Of a DNA stretch of 64,000 nt, positions 11,188 to 16,609 are shown one piece after another. The first letter of the stretch is position 1, and each line of letters begins with the position of its first letter. Source of the stretch: a virus; IMG/VR virus record IMGVR_UViG_3300036832_001295, positions 21,709 to 85,708 of that record. One strand, 5' to 3'. The translations under genes and the position numbers were made by a program. The notes beneath the pieces were generated by a model that worked only from the letters and a program-made list of their open reading frames with translations, made no database searches and had not been told where the DNA came from.

Positions 11188-11218
11188 TTGCACACCTGGC
11201 GCTGGGATGTGCTACAGT
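11188..11218 (+). promoter_or_regulatory. Putative SigA-type promoter of the RAMP-like operon
   Basis: TTGCAC (11188) and extended -10 TGcTACAGT (11210-11218); spacer 19 nt, which is long; divergent from the lysin gene. Confidence 0.45.
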
Positions 11219-11294
11219 TCCTGTGTCATCGCTTCCGCGGTGCAAACCACACAGGGTTCATAACCCACTACTCAAAGCCTATAGGAGGCTTACT

Positions 11295-11942
11295 ATGACC
11301 GCAGCACCTACTGCTGCTCTGCACATCCCACGCATCAACGTGGAGACCCTGCTGGTGCCGATCCTCGGGACCAGCCCGCTGCTCGTGCACCAGTGGTCCC
11401 AGAAGGCCAAGCTGCAGATGCTCAACGCGCAGCAGGGCATCAAGACCATCAAGGAACCCCGCGACCCGCAGTCGGAGTACGAGGCCAGCCTGTACCGGGC
11501 CGGGGACGACGGCTACGGCATCCCGTCGGTCGCCTTCAAGGCGGCCACCGTGTCCGCGGCCCGCGTCTACGGCAAGGCGGTCCGGATGACCGAACTGCGC
11601 CAGTTCCTGTTCTTCCGCGGCAAGATGTACAAGGGCAACAACGGCAAGTTCAGCTGCAACCAACAGCTGTTCCTGCTCGACGGCACCCCGCAGATGCGCG
11701 AAGACATGGTCACCGTCGGCATCTCCGGCACCGACCTGCGCTACCGGGGCGAGTTCACCGAGTGGTCGACCACGCTGACCGTCGAGTACATCAAGTCCTC
11801 GATCACCAAGGAGTCGGTGCTCGGCATCATCGAGGCGGCCGGAACCACCGTCGGGGTCGGCGAGTGGCGGCCGGAGAAGGACGGCGAGTTCGGCACCTTC
11901 AAGCTCGACCCGTCCCGTGAGGTGCAGGTCATCTCGGCATGA
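11295..11942 (+). CDS. Cas7/RAMP-superfamily-like RNA-binding protein (Vipr-like effector)
   Basis: GGAGG RBS at 11284, ATG 11295, 215 aa; N-terminal ILGTSPLLVH strand, GIPSVAFKAA helix, RYRGEFTEWS and C-terminal glycine-rich loop GVGEWRPEKDGEFGTF, the RAMP-like pattern. Confidence 0.8.
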   Translation: MTAAPTAALHIPRINVETLLVPILGTSPLLVHQWSQKAKLQMLNAQQGIKTIKEPRDPQSEYEASLYRAGDDGYGIPSVAFKAATVSAARVYGKAVRMTELRQFLFFRGKMYKGNNGKFSCNQQLFLLDGTPQMREDMVTVGISGTDLRYRGEFTEWSTTLTVEYIKSSITKESVLGIIEAAGTTVGVGEWRPEKDGEFGTFKLDPSREVQVISA

Positions 11943-12307
11943 GCGGCGACCCGCAGCAGTGGTTGCGGACGGAGTTGAAGGGGGTGCGCGTCCGGCAGGG
12001 CGCGCTCACCCCGGCCACGTTGCTGGCTGACGTGACCCAGACCGGCCCGACGCATCCGCTCTATGACCGGTTCCTGTGGTCGGTGGACACGCCGCAGGAC
12101 AAGGCCCAACTGGCCCGCATGCTGATCCACGAGGCCCATCCGGAGCAGGCCTGCCGCCAGGCCACCCTGGACGAGGTACAGGCCGGGTTCGCCCGGCTGG
12201 GGTTTTCCACCGGCAGCTTGCAGACCAACTACCACCGTGAGGACCACATTCTGTTCACGGTGGACGACGCACAGCGGCTGCTGGCCGCATTAGGGGGACA
12301 GTCATGA
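11939..12307 (+). CDS. Accessory protein, divergent paralog of the next gene
   Basis: Overlaps the upstream stop (ATGA); GALTPATLLADV..HPLYDRFLW mirrors GELTPQAVLAEV..HPLYDRFEW of 12304-12759. Confidence 0.7.
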   Translation: MSGDPQQWLRTELKGVRVRQGALTPATLLADVTQTGPTHPLYDRFLWSVDTPQDKAQLARMLIHEAHPEQACRQATLDEVQAGFARLGFSTGSLQTNYHREDHILFTVDDAQRLLAALGGQS

Positions 12308-13291: not shown

Positions 13292-13738
13292 ATGAAGATT
13301 CATACGCTGTTGGCGTTGGCCGCGGCCGGGGTGTGCACCGCCGGAATGGTGGTCTTCGCGGCACCGGCCTCGGCGGCGCAGTCGGAGTTGACCCTCAACT
13401 GCACCGGCCTCGGCATGGTGACGGTGGCGACCAACAACAACAACTCATCCGAGCACGGTGGTTGGGGCGCGGCGCAGACCGTGAACATTCCCGGGCACGG
13501 TATCGCGACCTCGTTCTCCGGCACGATTACCGACCTGGTGACCGGCACCAGCGTGAGCTTCACCCAGGTCAAGGGCAACGGCAACGCCAACCAGAACACC
13601 ACCGGGCAACCCACCATGTGCTCACAGACGATCACCGGCACGGTGGTCGACTTCACCGGGGGGTTCATCCCGCCGGGCATGTCGGGCTCTGACCCGGCCA
13701 CCTTCATGCTCACGGTGGGCGTGATTTACAAGGCCTGA
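13292..13738 (+). CDS. Secreted protein inserted within the array
   Basis: MKIHTLLALAAAGVCTAGMVVFAAPASA signal peptide, 148 aa, two Cys in the mature part, normal codon usage unlike the flanks. Confidence 0.8.
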   Translation: MKIHTLLALAAAGVCTAGMVVFAAPASAAQSELTLNCTGLGMVTVATNNNNSSEHGGWGAAQTVNIPGHGIATSFSGTITDLVTGTSVSFTQVKGNGNANQNTTGQPTMCSQTITGTVVDFTGGFIPPGMSGSDPATFMLTVGVIYKA

Positions 13739-13741
13739 CTC

Positions 13742-16587
13742 GGCAGGCAGGGCTTGGCGGGGCATGGTTCGGCGCGGCATGGCACGGTGTGGCAGCCAGG
13801 GCACGGCGCGGCACGGCACGGCCTGGCTCGGCGCGGCAGGCGCGGCGCGGCGCGGCGGGGTCGGGCCCGGCCTGGTGCGGCGAGACATGGCGCGGCGAGG
13901 CAGGCATGGTGTGGCTCGGCCTGGCTCGGCAAGGCAGGGCAGGCACGGCATGGTTGGGCTCGGCGCGGTTGGGCGTCGCAGGGCTTGGCAGGCAGGGCGA
14001 GGTGTGGCGGGTCCAGGCATGGCGCGGCAGGCATGGCCCGGCGCGGCTCGGTACGGCAAGGTGGGGCGTGGCAGGCGGGGTTGGGTTCGGTTTGGCATGG
14101 CGCGGTTGGGCACGGCACGGCTCGGCAGGCGTGGCTTGGCGTGTCGAGGCGGGGCTGGGTTCGCTGGGCCAGGCGGGGCAGGGCAGGCGTGGCTGGGCGG
14201 GTTCCGGCAAGGCAAGGCATGGCCAGGCAGGCACGGCCCGGTTCGGTATGGCACGTCGTGGCCAGACTTGGCTTGGCAGGCGTGGCTTGGTGTGGCACGG
14301 CCGGGTCAGGCACGGTTGGGCGCGGCAGGCTCGGCGAGGCGTGTCATGGCAAGGCTCGGCTAGGTAGGGCACGGCAGCCGAGGCCTGGTGAGGCAGGGCA
14401 ACGCGAGGCATGGCTAGGCCCGGCAGTCGGGGCGTGGCATGACCCGGTGTGGCAGGTCACGGCAAGGCGTGGCGCGGCAGGCACGGCTAGGTCGGGCGCG
14501 GATCGGCGTGGCATGGCGTGGCAGCTAAGGCGCGGCGGGGCACGGCACGGCTGGCTAGGCAAGGCTCGGCCCGGTGCGGCATGGCAGGTCAGGGCAGGCG
14601 TGGCAGGGTGCGGCAGGGTCAGGCGCGGCAGGGCTAGGCGGGGCTTGGCAGGCAAACGTGGTTTAGCTGGGCCCGGCGTGCCGGGGCACGGTGGGGCGTG
14701 GCAGGCAGAGCAAGGCTCGGCTTGGTTCGGCGTGGCATGGCAGGCAGGGCTAGGCAAGGTATGACAAGGCTGGGTGCGGCATGGCGTGGCTGGCATTCGT
14801 GGTTTGGCTGGGCGGGCCGCGGCGGGGCAGGCAAGGCATGGCTTGGCATCGCATGGTGTGGCTCGGCTAGGCGCGGCAGGGCAGGCAGGCGAGGCCGGGC
14901 AGGCAGGGCTGGATTCGGCCGGGCATGGCTTGGCGCGGTTTGGCAGGCAAGGCAGGCATGGTGAGGCACGGCAGGGCACGGCGCGGCTAGGCGCGGCAGG
15001 CGAGGCAGGGCCCGGCTAGTCCAGGTGCGGCGGGTCGCGGCCGGGTTCGGCAGGGCAGGCTCGGTTGGGCTGGGCGGGGCGTGGTTTGGCAAGGCAGGGT
15101 TGGGCACGGCAGGCAGGCAGGGCGTGGTTGGGCTCGGGCGGCTGGGCACGGCAGGGCAGGCACGGCGGGTCCGGGCGAGGCTCGGCAAGGTCCGGCCTGG
15201 CGGGGTAGGGCCTGGCAGGCGAGGCGGGGTGTGGCGGGGCCTGGCGGGTCAAGGCACGTCATGGCGCGGCAGGCATGGCGAGGCAGGGCTTGGTCCGGCA
15301 GGGCACGTCCCGGCTTGGCTTGGCAGGCTCGGCCAGGCGCGGTTGGGCGAGGCATGGCAAGGCAGGGCTCGGCCAGGCAGGCATGGCCCGGCGAGACCCG
15401 GCTCGGCTCGGTGCGGCATGGCGCGGCATGGCAGGCAGGGCGCGGCGCGGCCAGGCGAGGCCGGGCTTGGCTCGGTCCGGCCTGGCGAGGCGAGGCAGGC
15501 ATGGCCCGGTATGGCACGGTGCGGCACGTCCCGGCGTGGTATGGCAGCCGAGGCCCGGCTTAGCGTGGCAGGTCTTGGCGAGGCCTGGTGTGGCACGGCA
15601 AGGCAGGGCGTGGCAGGCATCGCGTGGTGTGGCACGGCCCGGTGGGGCACGGCTTGGCAGGCATCGCACGGCGCGGCATGGCAGGTCGAGGCAAAGCCTG
15701 GCGGGCACGGCAGGCATGGCCCGGTCCGGTTCGGCACCGCACGGCGGGGCATGGCAGGCATGGTTCGGCTTGGCGTGGTGTGGTGGGGCACGGCAGGGCA
15801 CGGCAGGCAGGGCTCGGCGTGGTTCGGCACGGCACGGTGTGGCGTGGCTTGGCGGGCAGGGCTCGGCCGGGTTGGGTACGGCGTGGTCAGGCGAGGCGCG
15901 GCGCGGTGTGGCAGGCAGGGCTCGGTACGGCGGGGCATGGCAGGGTGTGGCTAGGCCCGGCGGGCATGGCATGGCGCGGCAAGTCCAGGCGAGGCGCGGC
16001 GAGGCGTGGCGAGGCGAGGCGAGGCAGGCAAGGCAAGGTCGGGCAGGGCACGGTATGGCCCGGTGTGGTTGGCATGGCGCGGCATGGCAGGCAGGGCGCG
16101 GCAGGCTGGGCTCGGCACGGCTAGGCGCGGCTCGGCAAGGCGTGGTGGGGCAGCCGGGGCTGGGCGAGTTGGGCATGGCCGGGCGCGGCGTGGCAGTCCA
16201 GGCAGGGCAGGACGAGGCAGGGCTAGGCGCGGCTTGGCAGGGCAGGCTTGGCCCGGCGGGGCATGGTTGGGCTAGTCAAGGTCGGGCATGGCAGGCAGGG
16301 CAGGGCTTGGCCCGGCAACGCAGGGCTTGGCCCGGCGCGGCAGGCACGGCAGGGTTAGGCGGGGCGGGGTCCGGCTAGGCCTGGCAGGCAAGGCGGGGCA
16401 GGTCCCGGCTTGGTTGGGCACGGCTCGGCGCGGCAGGCGTGGCAGAGTTCGGCGAGGCTAGGCGTGGCAAGGCCCGGCTAGGCAGCCACGGCGGGGCCTG
16501 GCCAGGCATGGCAAGGTGAGGTGCGGCGCGGCATGGCAGGCGTGGCTTGGCGTGGCACCGTGTGGCCACGCGTGGCACGGCACGGCA
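13742..16587 (+). repeat. GGY-NN pentamer array, block 2 (~56 units plus a few truncated ones, putative guide RNAs)
   Basis: Same grammar as block 1 over 2.85 kb; units of ~7-13 pentamers; no unit seen twice. Confidence 0.9.
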
Positions 16588-16609
16588 GGCTCGGAAAACC
16601 GGGCCTGCC
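16584..16609 (+). terminator. Hairpin closing the array
   Basis: GGCAGGCTCGG-AAAA-CCGGGCCTGCC, 11-bp stem with one G:U, between the array and a convergent gene. Confidence 0.7.

What the first reader, a model, noticed from the sequence alone, without database searches (positions are those of the whole stretch)
11188..16609. Phage RNA-guided system: solo Cas7/RAMP-like gene plus GGY-NN guide array (VIPR-like)
Seen: a self-contained plus-strand unit (promoter, RAMP-like gene, two coupled accessory genes, hairpin leader, ~3.2 kb pentamer array, closing hairpin) inserted antisense between two lysin genes. Known: Cas7/RAMP proteins polymerise on guide RNA with a fixed nucleotide step. Inference: one subunit binds each 5-nt GGY-NN, clamps GGY and displays NN for pairing, giving programmable recognition with no CRISPR repeat-spacer structure and no visible nuclease. 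From memory, a phage RAMP plus GGY/NN system has been reported as 'VIPR'. I cannot confirm that here, so novelty of the architecture needs a literature check.
Basis: partly seen in the sequence, partly recalled or inferred. Interest (0 to 1): 0.97.

Follow-up and report, generated by a model that had tools for sequence, protein, structure and literature searches.

The report
Giant VIPR guide array in actinophage
This soil phage carries a VIPR system, a recently described CRISPR-like RNA-guided DNA silencer, with an unusually long array of about 60 guides, so it is a striking new example of a known kind rather than a new kind.

Summary
On the + strand lie a 215-aa gene (11295-11942), two translationally coupled small genes, leader hairpins, and 3,240 nt of GGY-NN pentamers (12854-13245 and 13741-16588), ending in a hairpin.

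The interpretation also holds, but it is not new. VIPR was described in 2026 bioRxiv preprints. The protein matches the solved SUSP1 Vipr (PDB 36pp, E 7e-7), keeps its GGY-binding residues, and folds as a Cas7/Csm3 RAMP (Z 10.9).

- **Linkage:** 147 of 165 loci with a homologue carry a same-strand GGY-NN array.
- **Array grammar:** 81 modules (60 with at least 7 units) are joined by a 1-nt-overlap GGCAG|G junction. This fits the published "staggered" architecture, with no 3' tails or ribozymes.
- **Size:** it is the largest array in my survey, 673 anchors against 300 for the next and a median of 38.

Targets remain unknown. No full-module exact target turned up. One of six modules tested with mismatches fits motif I of SNF2 defence helicases (DrmD, DpdE): 23 matches against 2 in the control.

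The scan had already noted this stretch and its codon-like decoding. Verdict: new member of a known kind.

The parts
11188..11294 (+). Intergenic leader between the divergent endolysin gene and vipr. Presumed promoter region and ribosome-binding site (GGAGG at 11284-11288).
   Evidence: Read from the sequence. The consensus promoter scan found none in 10900-17000, so the promoter is inferred only.
11295..11942 (+). vipr: 215-aa single-RRM RAMP protein, a homologue of SUSP1 Vipr.
   Evidence: phrog_4652 E 5.8e-40. PDB 36pp_D 'SUSP1 Vipr protein' E 7e-7 by phmmer and 7.6e-8 by profile. BLASTP to phiSUSP1 L084:2599-3186 gives 4e-12, with R151=R138 and E190-W191-R192=D177-W178-R179. The AF2 model has pLDDT 92.2. 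Foldseek gave 71 hits at E<=1e-3, top ones Cas7/Csm3. VIA ranks 1-36 are all CRISPR RAMPs, best Z 10.9.
11939..12307 (+). vapA-like gene (122 aa). Its N-terminal 45 residues are a paralogue of the next gene; the rest has no match.
   Evidence: BLASTP to vapB gives 51% identity over 45 aa, E 6e-14. tblastn hit only 4 of 82 loci, at the place of their vapB. No Pfam or PHROG hit.
12304..12759 (+). vapB: the conserved Vipr-accessory protein of this clade (151 aa).
   Evidence: phrog_15946 E 2.9e-22. A homologue lies beside vipr in 69 of 82 loci and 137 of 165 loci. No BLASTP similarity to SUSP1 vap1. Weak structural lead to the Rep3_N winged helix, TM 0.32-0.35.
12763..12846 (+). Two stable hairpins between vapB and the array. 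The first is terminator-like.
   Evidence: MFE -57.7 kcal/mol, z -4.88, 0 of 200 shuffles as stable. Terminator-like site at 12771-12785.
12854..13245 (+). vrRNA sub-array A: 7 modules of 9-11 units plus 2 short ones, each ending in a GGCAg junction.
   Evidence: Viterbi parse; TRF period-5 rows.
13292..13738 (+). ORF for a 148-aa protein with an N-terminal signal-peptide-like segment. It interrupts the array and is probably cargo rather than part of the system.
   Evidence: ORF and its own GGGGGA ribosome-binding site. No homologue in 82 related loci. No Pfam or PHROG family. Atlas gives only weak leads.
13741..16588 (+). vrRNA sub-array B: 53 modules of at least 7 units (about 39-69 nt each) in staggered, 1-nt-overlap arrangement.
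   Evidence: Parse. No Rfam family such as hammerhead in 11000-17000.
15218..15272 (+). Module whose NN string, read with a 1-nt skip, spells D-G-V-G-L-G-K-T-I-A. It fits motif I of SNF2 defence helicases.
   Evidence: At <=2 mismatches there are 23 matches in 19 of 121 Mycobacteriales genomes against 2 for the reversed pattern. All 12 fetched loci are in frame in large ORFs. PADLOC gives DrmD 1.7e-268 and DpdE 1.5e-262.
16584..16610 (.). Closing hairpin, shared with the end of the convergent - strand gene 16613-16846.
   Evidence: Fold of 16560-16640: -43.8 kcal/mol, z -3.52.

Best explanation
This is a VIPR (Viral Interference Programmable Repeat) system of the staggered-array kind, carried by a large, probably lytic actinobacterial myovirus-like phage from soil.

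Shown here:
- A Vipr-family RAMP gene is present.
- A clade-typical accessory gene (vapB) sits beside it, along with a partial duplicate (vapA).
- On the same strand lie 3.24 kb of GGY-NN pentamers. They are organised into about 60 guide-sized modules (8-13 variable dinucleotides each), separated only by a -1 phase slip (GGCAG|GC).

Inferred from the published SUSP1 work:
- The array is transcribed.
- Vipr protomers polymerise one per pentamer. Two neighbouring protomers clamp each GGY through the conserved H32, R151 and E190-W191-R192 positions.
- The exposed NN pairs read double-stranded DNA with one skipped base per pair, usually the codon wobble position.
- The bound filament blocks transcription.

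My own inference:
- The 1-nt overlap at each junction breaks the 5-nt register, so each filament ends there. That sets guide length in place of the 3' tail or pseudoknot of SUSP1-type vrRNAs.

The target set is unknown. By analogy it comprises genes of competing elements or of the host cell. At least one guide fits SNF2 helicases of DISARM/Dpd-type defence systems.
For: Protein:
- phmmer hits PDB 36pp_D 'SUSP1 Vipr protein' at E 7e-7; the profile hits at E 7.6e-8.
- Pairwise BLASTP to the phiSUSP1 gene gives 4e-12. R151, E190, W191 and R192 align to the published RNA-contact residues R138, D177, W178 and R179 (residues from 10.64898/2026.04.26.720927, section 5).
- All four are invariant in 63 homologues.
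- The AF2 model has pLDDT 92.2. Foldseek returns 71 hits at E<=1e-3, led by type VII Cas7 and Csm3. VIA ranks 1-36 are all CRISPR RAMPs, with Csm3 at Z 10.9.

Array:
- 473 successive 5-nt anchor distances, against a shuffle mean of 28.
- 491 of 549 units are exact GGY, and NN entropy is 3.87 of 4 bits.

Linkage:
- 147 of 165 loci have a same-strand array of at least 8 anchors within 6 kb of the homologue, against 2 of 165 on the opposite strand.

Junction grammar is shared across the clade:
- 755 of 982 junctions in 164 loci are GGCA.
- GGCA is the commonest junction in 109 of 117 loci with at least 3 junctions.
- This fits the legend of fig. S18 of 10.64898/2026.04.26.720920 ('1 nt overlapping positions').

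Other points:
- No self-targets beyond shuffles, as the paper reports for its own systems.
- Phage context: endolysin, portal 38% identical to Mycobacterium myoviruses, and an IMG/VR virus record.
Against: - There is no RNA evidence. The only public run holding the stretch is a DNA run of a soil metagenome.
- No consensus promoter was found, and a terminator-like hairpin lies between vapB and the array.
- No module has an exact full-length 1-nt-skip target. Results were 0 hits for 5 of 5 modules in IMG/VR and 0 for the one module scanned in 185,579 species genomes. That same module gave 2 hits in JGI metagenomes, both the same sequence and chance-like.
- With mismatches allowed, only 1 of 6 modules is clearly above its control.
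- The NN composition fits codon positions 1-2 of high-GC genes no better than a uniform model.
- vapB shows no similarity to SUSP1 vap1. There is no 3' tail.
- According to the paper's Results, staggered arrays were not among the architectures confirmed by small-RNA sequencing.
Confidence: 0.9

Rival explanations
1. The system is a genuine VIPR, but most of the 3.2-kb array is non-functional expansion. Under this reading, slipped or duplicated pentamer modules have no targets, and only a few guides are in use.
For: - No exact target for any of the 6 modules scanned in a public collection.
- 21 of 81 modules have fewer than 7 units.
- Internal direct repeats exist. One 32-nt repeat lets the Logan assembly skip 656 nt.
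- The array is 2.2 times the next largest in 165 loci.
Against: - NN entropy is 3.87 of 4 bits and GGY is kept in 491 of 549 units. Simple duplication would give repeated NN strings, and neutral decay would erode GGY.
- Module lengths peak sharply at 9-11 units, as in relatives.
- The databases searched hold neither the unknown host nor its mobile elements.
Confidence: 0.07
2. The RAMP protein acts as a Csm3/Cmr4-like RNA-targeting backbone, binding or cutting transcripts rather than silencing double-stranded DNA.
For: The closest solved folds are type III and type VII Cas7 subunits, which act on RNA.
Against: - Sequence homology is to SUSP1 Vipr, not to any Cas7. No Cas7 chain appears at E<=10 by sequence.
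- The residues that hold GGY are conserved.
- SUSP1 VIPR binds dsDNA and represses from either strand (10.64898/2026.04.26.720920, Results).
- The SNF2-matching module reads in the sense orientation, so it could not pair with that mRNA.
Confidence: 0.03
3. The G-rich pentamer tract is unrelated to the neighbouring gene. It could be structural DNA (for example quadruplex-forming) or a low-complexity coding region.
For: - The tract is 49% G.
- Long stop-free frames cross it on both strands.
Against: - A 5-nt period cannot keep a reading frame.
- Same-strand arrays accompany Vipr homologues in 147 of 165 loci across many phyla, against 2 on the opposite strand.
- The identical repeat unit is the experimentally shown guide of SUSP1 VIPR.
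Confidence: 0.01

Closest known systems
VIPR with staggered vrRNA arrays (fig. S18 of bioRxiv 10.64898/2026.04.26.720920)
   Same: - A Vipr RAMP gene, a small accessory gene and GGY/NN pentamers.
- Neighbouring guides share 1 nt, so one guide's end is the next one's start. This is the GGCAG|GC junction here.
- It is carried by a phage.
   Different: - I could read only the figure legend, not the figure or the type tables. Which of the seven types this clade belongs to is therefore not established.
- This array is far larger than any of the 164 relatives I surveyed (673 anchors against at most 300).
- It is split by a protein gene and is preceded by a duplicated vap.
SUSP1 / P. fulva type II VIPR (the experimentally characterised systems)
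   Same: - The Vipr proteins are homologous (E 4e-12 pairwise), with the same GGY-contact residues.
- The order vipr then vap is the same, the guides are GGY-NN, and the phage is lytic.
   Different: - SUSP1 has four separate vrRNAs of about 100 nt with 5-13 detected units. Each is followed by a conserved tail or pseudoknot, and there are no -1 junctions (paper Results).
- Here about 60 tail-less modules abut one another.
- vapB is not similar to vap1.
Class 1 CRISPR-Cas backbone (Cas7/Csm3/Cmr4 on crRNA)
   Same: - The RRM/RAMP fold is shared (Z 10.9 to Csm3).
- Subunits polymerise along a guide at a fixed step, and a thumb flips bases out.
   Different: - No repeat-spacer array, cas genes, adaptation module or nuclease is present in 11188-16609.
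- The step is 5 nt, with only 2 of 5 guide bases pairing.
- No sequence similarity to any Cas7 chain.
Solo vrRNAs of satellites and VIPR-null phages (bioRxiv 10.64898/2026.10.15.759431, abstract)
   Same: Two isolated single modules of GGY-NN units lie elsewhere in this phage record (G000:C1:8262-8320 + and 11143-11196 -).
   Different: Here they sit alongside a complete VIPR locus. Their function was not examined.

Membership tests
VIPR system | Vipr protein: a minimal single-RRM RAMP with G-loop and thumb, homologous to described Viprs | tested here: met
   PDB 36pp_D SUSP1 Vipr E 7e-7, 7.6e-8 and 4e-12 pairwise. Cas7/Csm3 fold at Z 10.9 with pLDDT 92. The G-loop GVGEWRP is invariant in 63 homologues.
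VIPR system | Residues that bind the GGY bases (SUSP1 H17, R138, D177, W178, R179) | tested here: met
   R151, E190 (a D-to-E change), W191 and R192 align in BLASTP. H32 aligns to H17 only in a low-scoring phmmer segment, so that one is tentative. K33 could not be placed.
VIPR system | Tandem YNNGG / GGY-NN repeats next to vipr, with conserved GGY and hypervariable NN | tested here: met
   594 five-nt units parsed. 491 of 549 are exact GGY, with NN entropy 3.87 of 4 bits. Periodicity is far above shuffles.
VIPR system | Minimal locus: vipr plus vap, with no CRISPR array or cas genes | tested here: met
   Only vipr, vapA and vapB precede the array. No Cas Pfam, PHROG or Rfam family was found. 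TRF shows only periods built from 5- and 4-nt steps.
VIPR system | Accessory gene belongs to one of vap1-vap6 | not testable with these tools
   The vap families are defined in supplementary data that were closed. vapB is unlike SUSP1 vap1 but is conserved beside vipr in 137 of 165 loci.
VIPR system | vrRNAs are expressed and co-purify with Vipr | not testable with these tools
   No RNA run holds the stretch. This needs wet-lab work.
VIPR system | Guides match natural DNA targets by the 1-nt skip rule | tested here: inconclusive
   No exact targets in any full-module scan; the 2 metagenome hits are the same chance-like sequence. At <=2 mismatches, module 15218 gives 23 matches against 2 for its control. 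Five other modules are at control level. The host is unknown.
VIPR, staggered-array architecture | Adjacent vrRNAs overlap by 1 nt, with no tail or ribozyme between them | tested here: met
   80 junctions, all -1 phase slips, with 67 of the 81 modules ending in GGCAg. No hammerhead or other Rfam hit. Processing at the junctions is inferred, not shown.
VIPR type II (SUSP1-like) | Discrete vrRNAs of about 100 nt, each with a conserved 3' tail or pseudoknot | tested here: not met
   Modules of 39-69 nt abut directly. The SUSP1 locus parsed the same way shows separate runs and no junctions.
CRISPR-Cas class 1 | Repeat-spacer array plus a multi-subunit Cas effector and adaptation genes | tested here: not met
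   None in the locus. The similarity is in fold only.

The most novel reading that the evidence does not exclude
Part of this 60-guide array may serve as a counter-defence. Under this reading, the phage writes guides in the wobble-skipping code against conserved motifs of host immunity genes, and silences those genes on infection. Motif I of the DrmD (DISARM) and DpdE (Dpd) SNF2 helicases would be one such motif. A giant array would then amount to a catalogue of host and rival genes to shut off.

The main texts of the three VIPR preprints I searched describe targets in satellites, prophages, other VIPRs and, for host-borne types, viruses. 'Anti-defense' and 'counter-defense' occur 0 times in two of them. 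Their supplements were not visible.
Probability: 0.2. Interest if true: 0.8.

Novelty: new member of a known kind. Interest (0 to 1): 0.45.

Why it matters
VIPR has so far been studied in enterobacterial and Pseudomonas phages with a handful of guides each. This locus matters for three reasons.
- **Scale and host range.** The same machinery occurs in actinobacterial phages, at a scale of about 60 guides in one transcript-sized array.
- **Guide boundaries.** A 1-nt register slip is the only guide boundary across a large clade. That makes guide-length control and processing directly testable.
- **Annotation and targets.** Mycobacterium and Gordonia phages from teaching collections carry homologues, with arrays currently annotated as hypothetical proteins. 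They therefore offer a tractable laboratory model. The SNF2 match raises the testable idea that phages use VIPR against host defences.

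Tried and rejected
**Structure.** The single-sequence structure prediction failed (pLDDT 31). It was replaced by an alignment-based model.

**Relatives of the phage.** Megablast of 24 kb of the phage against 50,697 phage records found nothing. Only distant protein-level relatives exist, so the host genus is unknown.

**Exact 1-nt-skip scans.**
- Module 15326 ('TIR-like'): 0 hits in genome contigs. 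In metagenome contigs it gave 2 loci carrying one identical sequence. That sequence reads CELFISQACE in a frame that does not look coding, so I take it as chance.
- Modules 15218, 15380, 15434, 15855 and 14074: 0 hits each in viral contigs.

**Searches with mismatches in Mycobacteriales genomes.**
- 15326: 1 match against 0 control in 401 genomes. The match is a real TIR ORF reading WDVFISHASE.
- 15380: 2 against 1 in 61 genomes. One hit is a histidine-kinase G1 box, the other an unrelated enzyme.
- 15434: 0 against 0 in 61 genomes.
- 14074: 3 against 0 in 61 genomes, but in three unrelated proteins.

I therefore reject 'the array as a whole is aimed at defence islands' as shown. Only module 15218 is supported.

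**Other target tests.**
- In 20 islands of 20 kb around the SNF2 hits, the other modules are not enriched over shuffles.
- Modules do not target 2.28 Mb of related VIPR loci. The two exact hits were the loci fetched with that same pattern, and I dropped them.
- There are no self-targets.
- The codon-composition test was inconclusive, with cross-entropy above uniform for every phase. My crude long-ORF set also mixes strands in high-GC DNA.

**Expression and annotation.**
- No RNA holder is listed for the stretch, so expression is untested.
- No Rfam family was found.
- vapB has no PDB relative by sequence.
- The Atlas gave only unnamed viral clusters and a weak winged-helix lead.

**Limits.** I used only 63 of the 120 listed homologues (of 1,968 found) for alignment A1. 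Supplementary files of the VIPR papers (type tables, target lists, fig. S16-S22 images) were closed. They may already contain this clade, its type and its targets.

Full report
**What is there.**
- On the + strand of the window lies an ORF at 11295-11942 (215 aa), preceded by GGAGG.
- It is followed by two ORFs, 11939-12307 (122 aa) and 12304-12759 (151 aa). Each overlaps its predecessor by ATGA.
- Two stable hairpins come next (12763-12846; -57.7 kcal/mol, z -4.9).
- After them comes G-rich DNA with a 5-nt period, from 12854 to 16588.
- A closing hairpin (z -3.5) abuts the end of a convergent - strand gene.
- The neighbours on the - strand are lysis genes. 10134-11102 is a GH19-type endolysin (phrog_317, E 1.6e-52). 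16797-17591 has a peptidoglycan-binding domain and weak endolysin PHROG hits.
The consensus scan found no promoter. The array is also interrupted by an ORF (13292-13738) for a 148-aa protein with a signal-peptide-like N-terminus, which has no homologue in related loci.

**The array is far beyond chance and has two levels of order.**
- In 3,240 nt there are 614 GGY anchors.
- 473 successive anchor distances equal 5 nt. In 200 shuffles the mean was 28 and the maximum 44.
- A Viterbi parse gives 594 five-nt units and 80 junctions. At each junction the phase slips by exactly -1.
- 67 of the 81 modules end in GGCAg, the final G doubling as the first G of the next GGC.
- Of the 81 modules, 60 have at least 7 units, with a sharp peak at 9-11.
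- 491 of 549 non-terminal units are exact GGY.
- The NN dinucleotides carry 3.87 of 4 bits of entropy.
- No Rfam family, including hammerhead ribozymes, lies in 11000-17000.

**Assembly check.**
- The one public run that holds the stretch is a soil-metagenome DNA run, probably the source of the record.
- An independent Logan assembly of that run reproduces 10500-15414 and 16071-17500 in one contig, and 15433-16100 in another, without differences.
- The first contig skips 656 nt across a 32-nt direct repeat.

**The protein is a Vipr.**
- Plain phmmer against all PDB chains finds 'SUSP1 Vipr protein' (36pp_D) at E 7e-7. A profile of 63 homologues finds it at 7.6e-8 and finds nothing else.
- Pairwise BLASTP to the gene in Escherichia phage phiSUSP1 (KT454805.2, L084:2599-3186) gives 4e-12. 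It aligns R151, E190, W191 and R192 with R138, D177, W178 and R179.
- The cryo-EM preprint names those SUSP1 residues as contacts of the two guanines and the pyrimidine (10.64898/2026.04.26.720927, section 5). All four positions are invariant in my alignment.
- With that alignment AlphaFold2 gives pLDDT 92.2. The single-sequence attempt failed.
- Foldseek finds 71 solved chains at E<=1e-3, led by type VII Cas7 and Csm3.
- The Foldseek-independent search ranks only CRISPR RAMP subunits in places 1-36, with Csm3 at Z 10.9 and Cmr4 at Z 10.8.
- No Cas7 is found by sequence.

**Homologues are linked to arrays.**
- I collected 80 loci from species genomes, 80 from IMG/VR, and four phage records: Gordonia ODay and UmaThurman, Mycobacterium Donkeykong, and phiSUSP1.
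- Counting the window, 147 of 165 loci have a chain of at least 8 GGY anchors on the gene's strand within 6 kb. Only 2 of 165 have one on the opposite strand, and the window itself is one of those two. Several of the loci without an array end within about 600 nt of the gene.
- The junction grammar is shared. 755 of 982 junctions are GGCA, and GGCA is the commonest junction in 109 of 117 loci with at least 3 junctions. phiSUSP1 instead has separate runs and no junctions.
- A homologue of the 151-aa protein (vapB, phrog_15946) lies beside vipr in 137 of 165 loci.
- The 122-aa protein shares only its first 45 residues with vapB (51% identity). It looks like a local partial duplication.
- vapB is not similar to SUSP1 vap1. 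A weak structural lead points to a winged helix.
- This array is the largest seen: 673 chained anchors, against 300 for the next (a Nocardia genome) and a median of 38.

**What is known.**
- VIPR is described in 10.64898/2026.04.26.720920 (I read Results in full, Methods 18 and 20, and passages). The paper reports:
  - a Vipr RAMP, a vap gene and vrRNAs of 9-16 YNNGG repeats;
  - a mostly viral or proviral distribution;
  - dsDNA recognition by the NN pairs with one skipped target base;
  - transcriptional repression;
  - seven types, including 'staggered arrays with overlapping vrRNAs'.
- The legend of its fig. S18 describes 1-nt overlaps. By the wording of Results, staggered arrays were not among the architectures confirmed by small-RNA sequencing.
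- 10.64898/2026.10.15.759431 (abstract and passages) shows that the skip matches codon periodicity and describes solo vrRNAs.
- 10.64898/2026.10.21.760802 (passages) recovers 99 VIPR-like clusters by their 5-nt period.
- The architecture is therefore in print, and this locus is a new member.
- I could not see the supplements, so its type and vap family are unassigned.

**Context.**
- The record is an 85.7-kb IMG/VR virus fragment, with CheckV completeness 62% and 67.6% GC.
- It has no close DNA relative among 50,697 phage records.
- Its intein-bearing portal is 38% identical to those of 155-kb Mycobacterium myoviruses.
- Vipr homologues occur in 156 phage records, among them 29 Mycobacterium and 5 Gordonia phages.
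- In two of these records the arrays are annotated as hypothetical proteins.

**Targets: leads and null results.**
- Earlier first-stage notes of this scan proposed that the NN strings decode as codon positions 1-2, and that three modules spell TIR, SNF2 and GHKL motifs. I tested this.
- There are no self-targets beyond shuffles.
- No module targets the 2.28 Mb of related VIPR loci I hold.
- Exact full-module patterns found nothing in IMG/VR for 5 of 5 modules.
- The TIR-like module found nothing in 185,579 species genomes. In JGI metagenomes it found only one chance-like non-TIR sequence, present twice.

**Targets: searches with mismatches in Mycobacteriales genomes.**
- The SNF2-like module 15218 gives 23 matches in 19 of 121 genomes, against 2 for the reversed pattern.
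  - All 12 loci I fetched are in frame at D-(D/E/G)-V-G-L-G-K-T-I-E in large ORFs.
  - PADLOC of the 5 ORFs scanned DrmD (best 1.7e-268), one DpdE (1.5e-262), one a generic BrxHI-like SNF2 helicase, and one HmaC. PADLOC holds only defence models, but the top hits span the models nearly end to end.
- The TIR-like module gives 1 against 0 in 401 genomes, and the hit is a true TIR ORF.
- The GHKL-like module gives 2 against 1 in 61 genomes.
- Module 15434 gives 0 against 0 in 61 genomes.
- Module 14074 gives 3 against 0 in 61 genomes, in unrelated proteins.
- Around the SNF2 hits, no other module is enriched.
- A composition test was inconclusive.
- So one guide fits a conserved motif of defence helicases well beyond chance. 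The claim that the repertoire as a whole is aimed at defence genes is not supported by what I could test. The real host and its mobile elements are not in hand.

**Mechanism.**
- *Shown:* the gene content, the homology, the conserved RNA-contact residues, the array grammar and the linkage.
- *Inferred from SUSP1:* transcription of the array, one Vipr per pentamer, NN read-out of dsDNA with a 1-nt skip, and silencing.
- *My inference:* the 1-nt overlap breaks the filament register, and so sets guide length in place of a tail.

**Verdict.** This is a new member of a known kind, of moderate interest for three reasons: its size, its actinophage setting, and the lead towards counter-defence.

Noticed in passing
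window 13292-13738 (+): An ORF for a 148-aa protein with a signal-peptide-like N-terminus and its own ribosome-binding site sits inside the guide array. It has no homologue in 82 related VIPR loci and no Pfam or PHROG family. It may be a moron inserted into the array.
   Followed up: partly
G000:C1:8262-8320 (+) and G000:C1:11143-11196 (-), upstream of the window: Two isolated single modules of 10-11 GGY-NN units lie far from the main array. One ends in GGCAGGCAA. They resemble the 'solo vrRNAs' described for other phages and satellites.
   Followed up: no
window 15414-16071: In the independent Logan assembly one contig skips 656 nt of the array across a 32-nt direct repeat. The skipped part forms its own contig at lower depth (5.0 against 8.7). 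This is either array-length variation in the phage population or a k-mer assembly effect.
   Followed up: partly
L002:6589-6912 (Gordonia phage UmaThurman gp40); L085:2468-2854 (Mycobacterium phage Donkeykong gp48): In GenBank records of cultured actinophages, GGY-NN arrays next to the Vipr homologue are annotated as hypothetical protein genes. These are probably miscalled guide arrays.
   Followed up: partly
window 17842-20667 (-): The 941-aa portal protein matches Mycobacterium myovirus portals in two pieces. The best hit is annotated 'intein-containing portal protein', so an intein is likely here too.
   Followed up: no
window 9189-9899 (-): This ORF has long collagen-like Gly-X-Y repeats after a membrane-anchor-like segment. 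It is probably a tail fibre or minor tail protein.
   Followed up: no
window 11939-12307 (+): The first accessory gene is a partial duplicate of the second. Only the N-terminal 45 residues, including the HPLYDRF motif, are shared, and related loci show no separate counterpart: its only tblastn hits, in 4 of 82 loci, fall on their vapB.
   Followed up: yes
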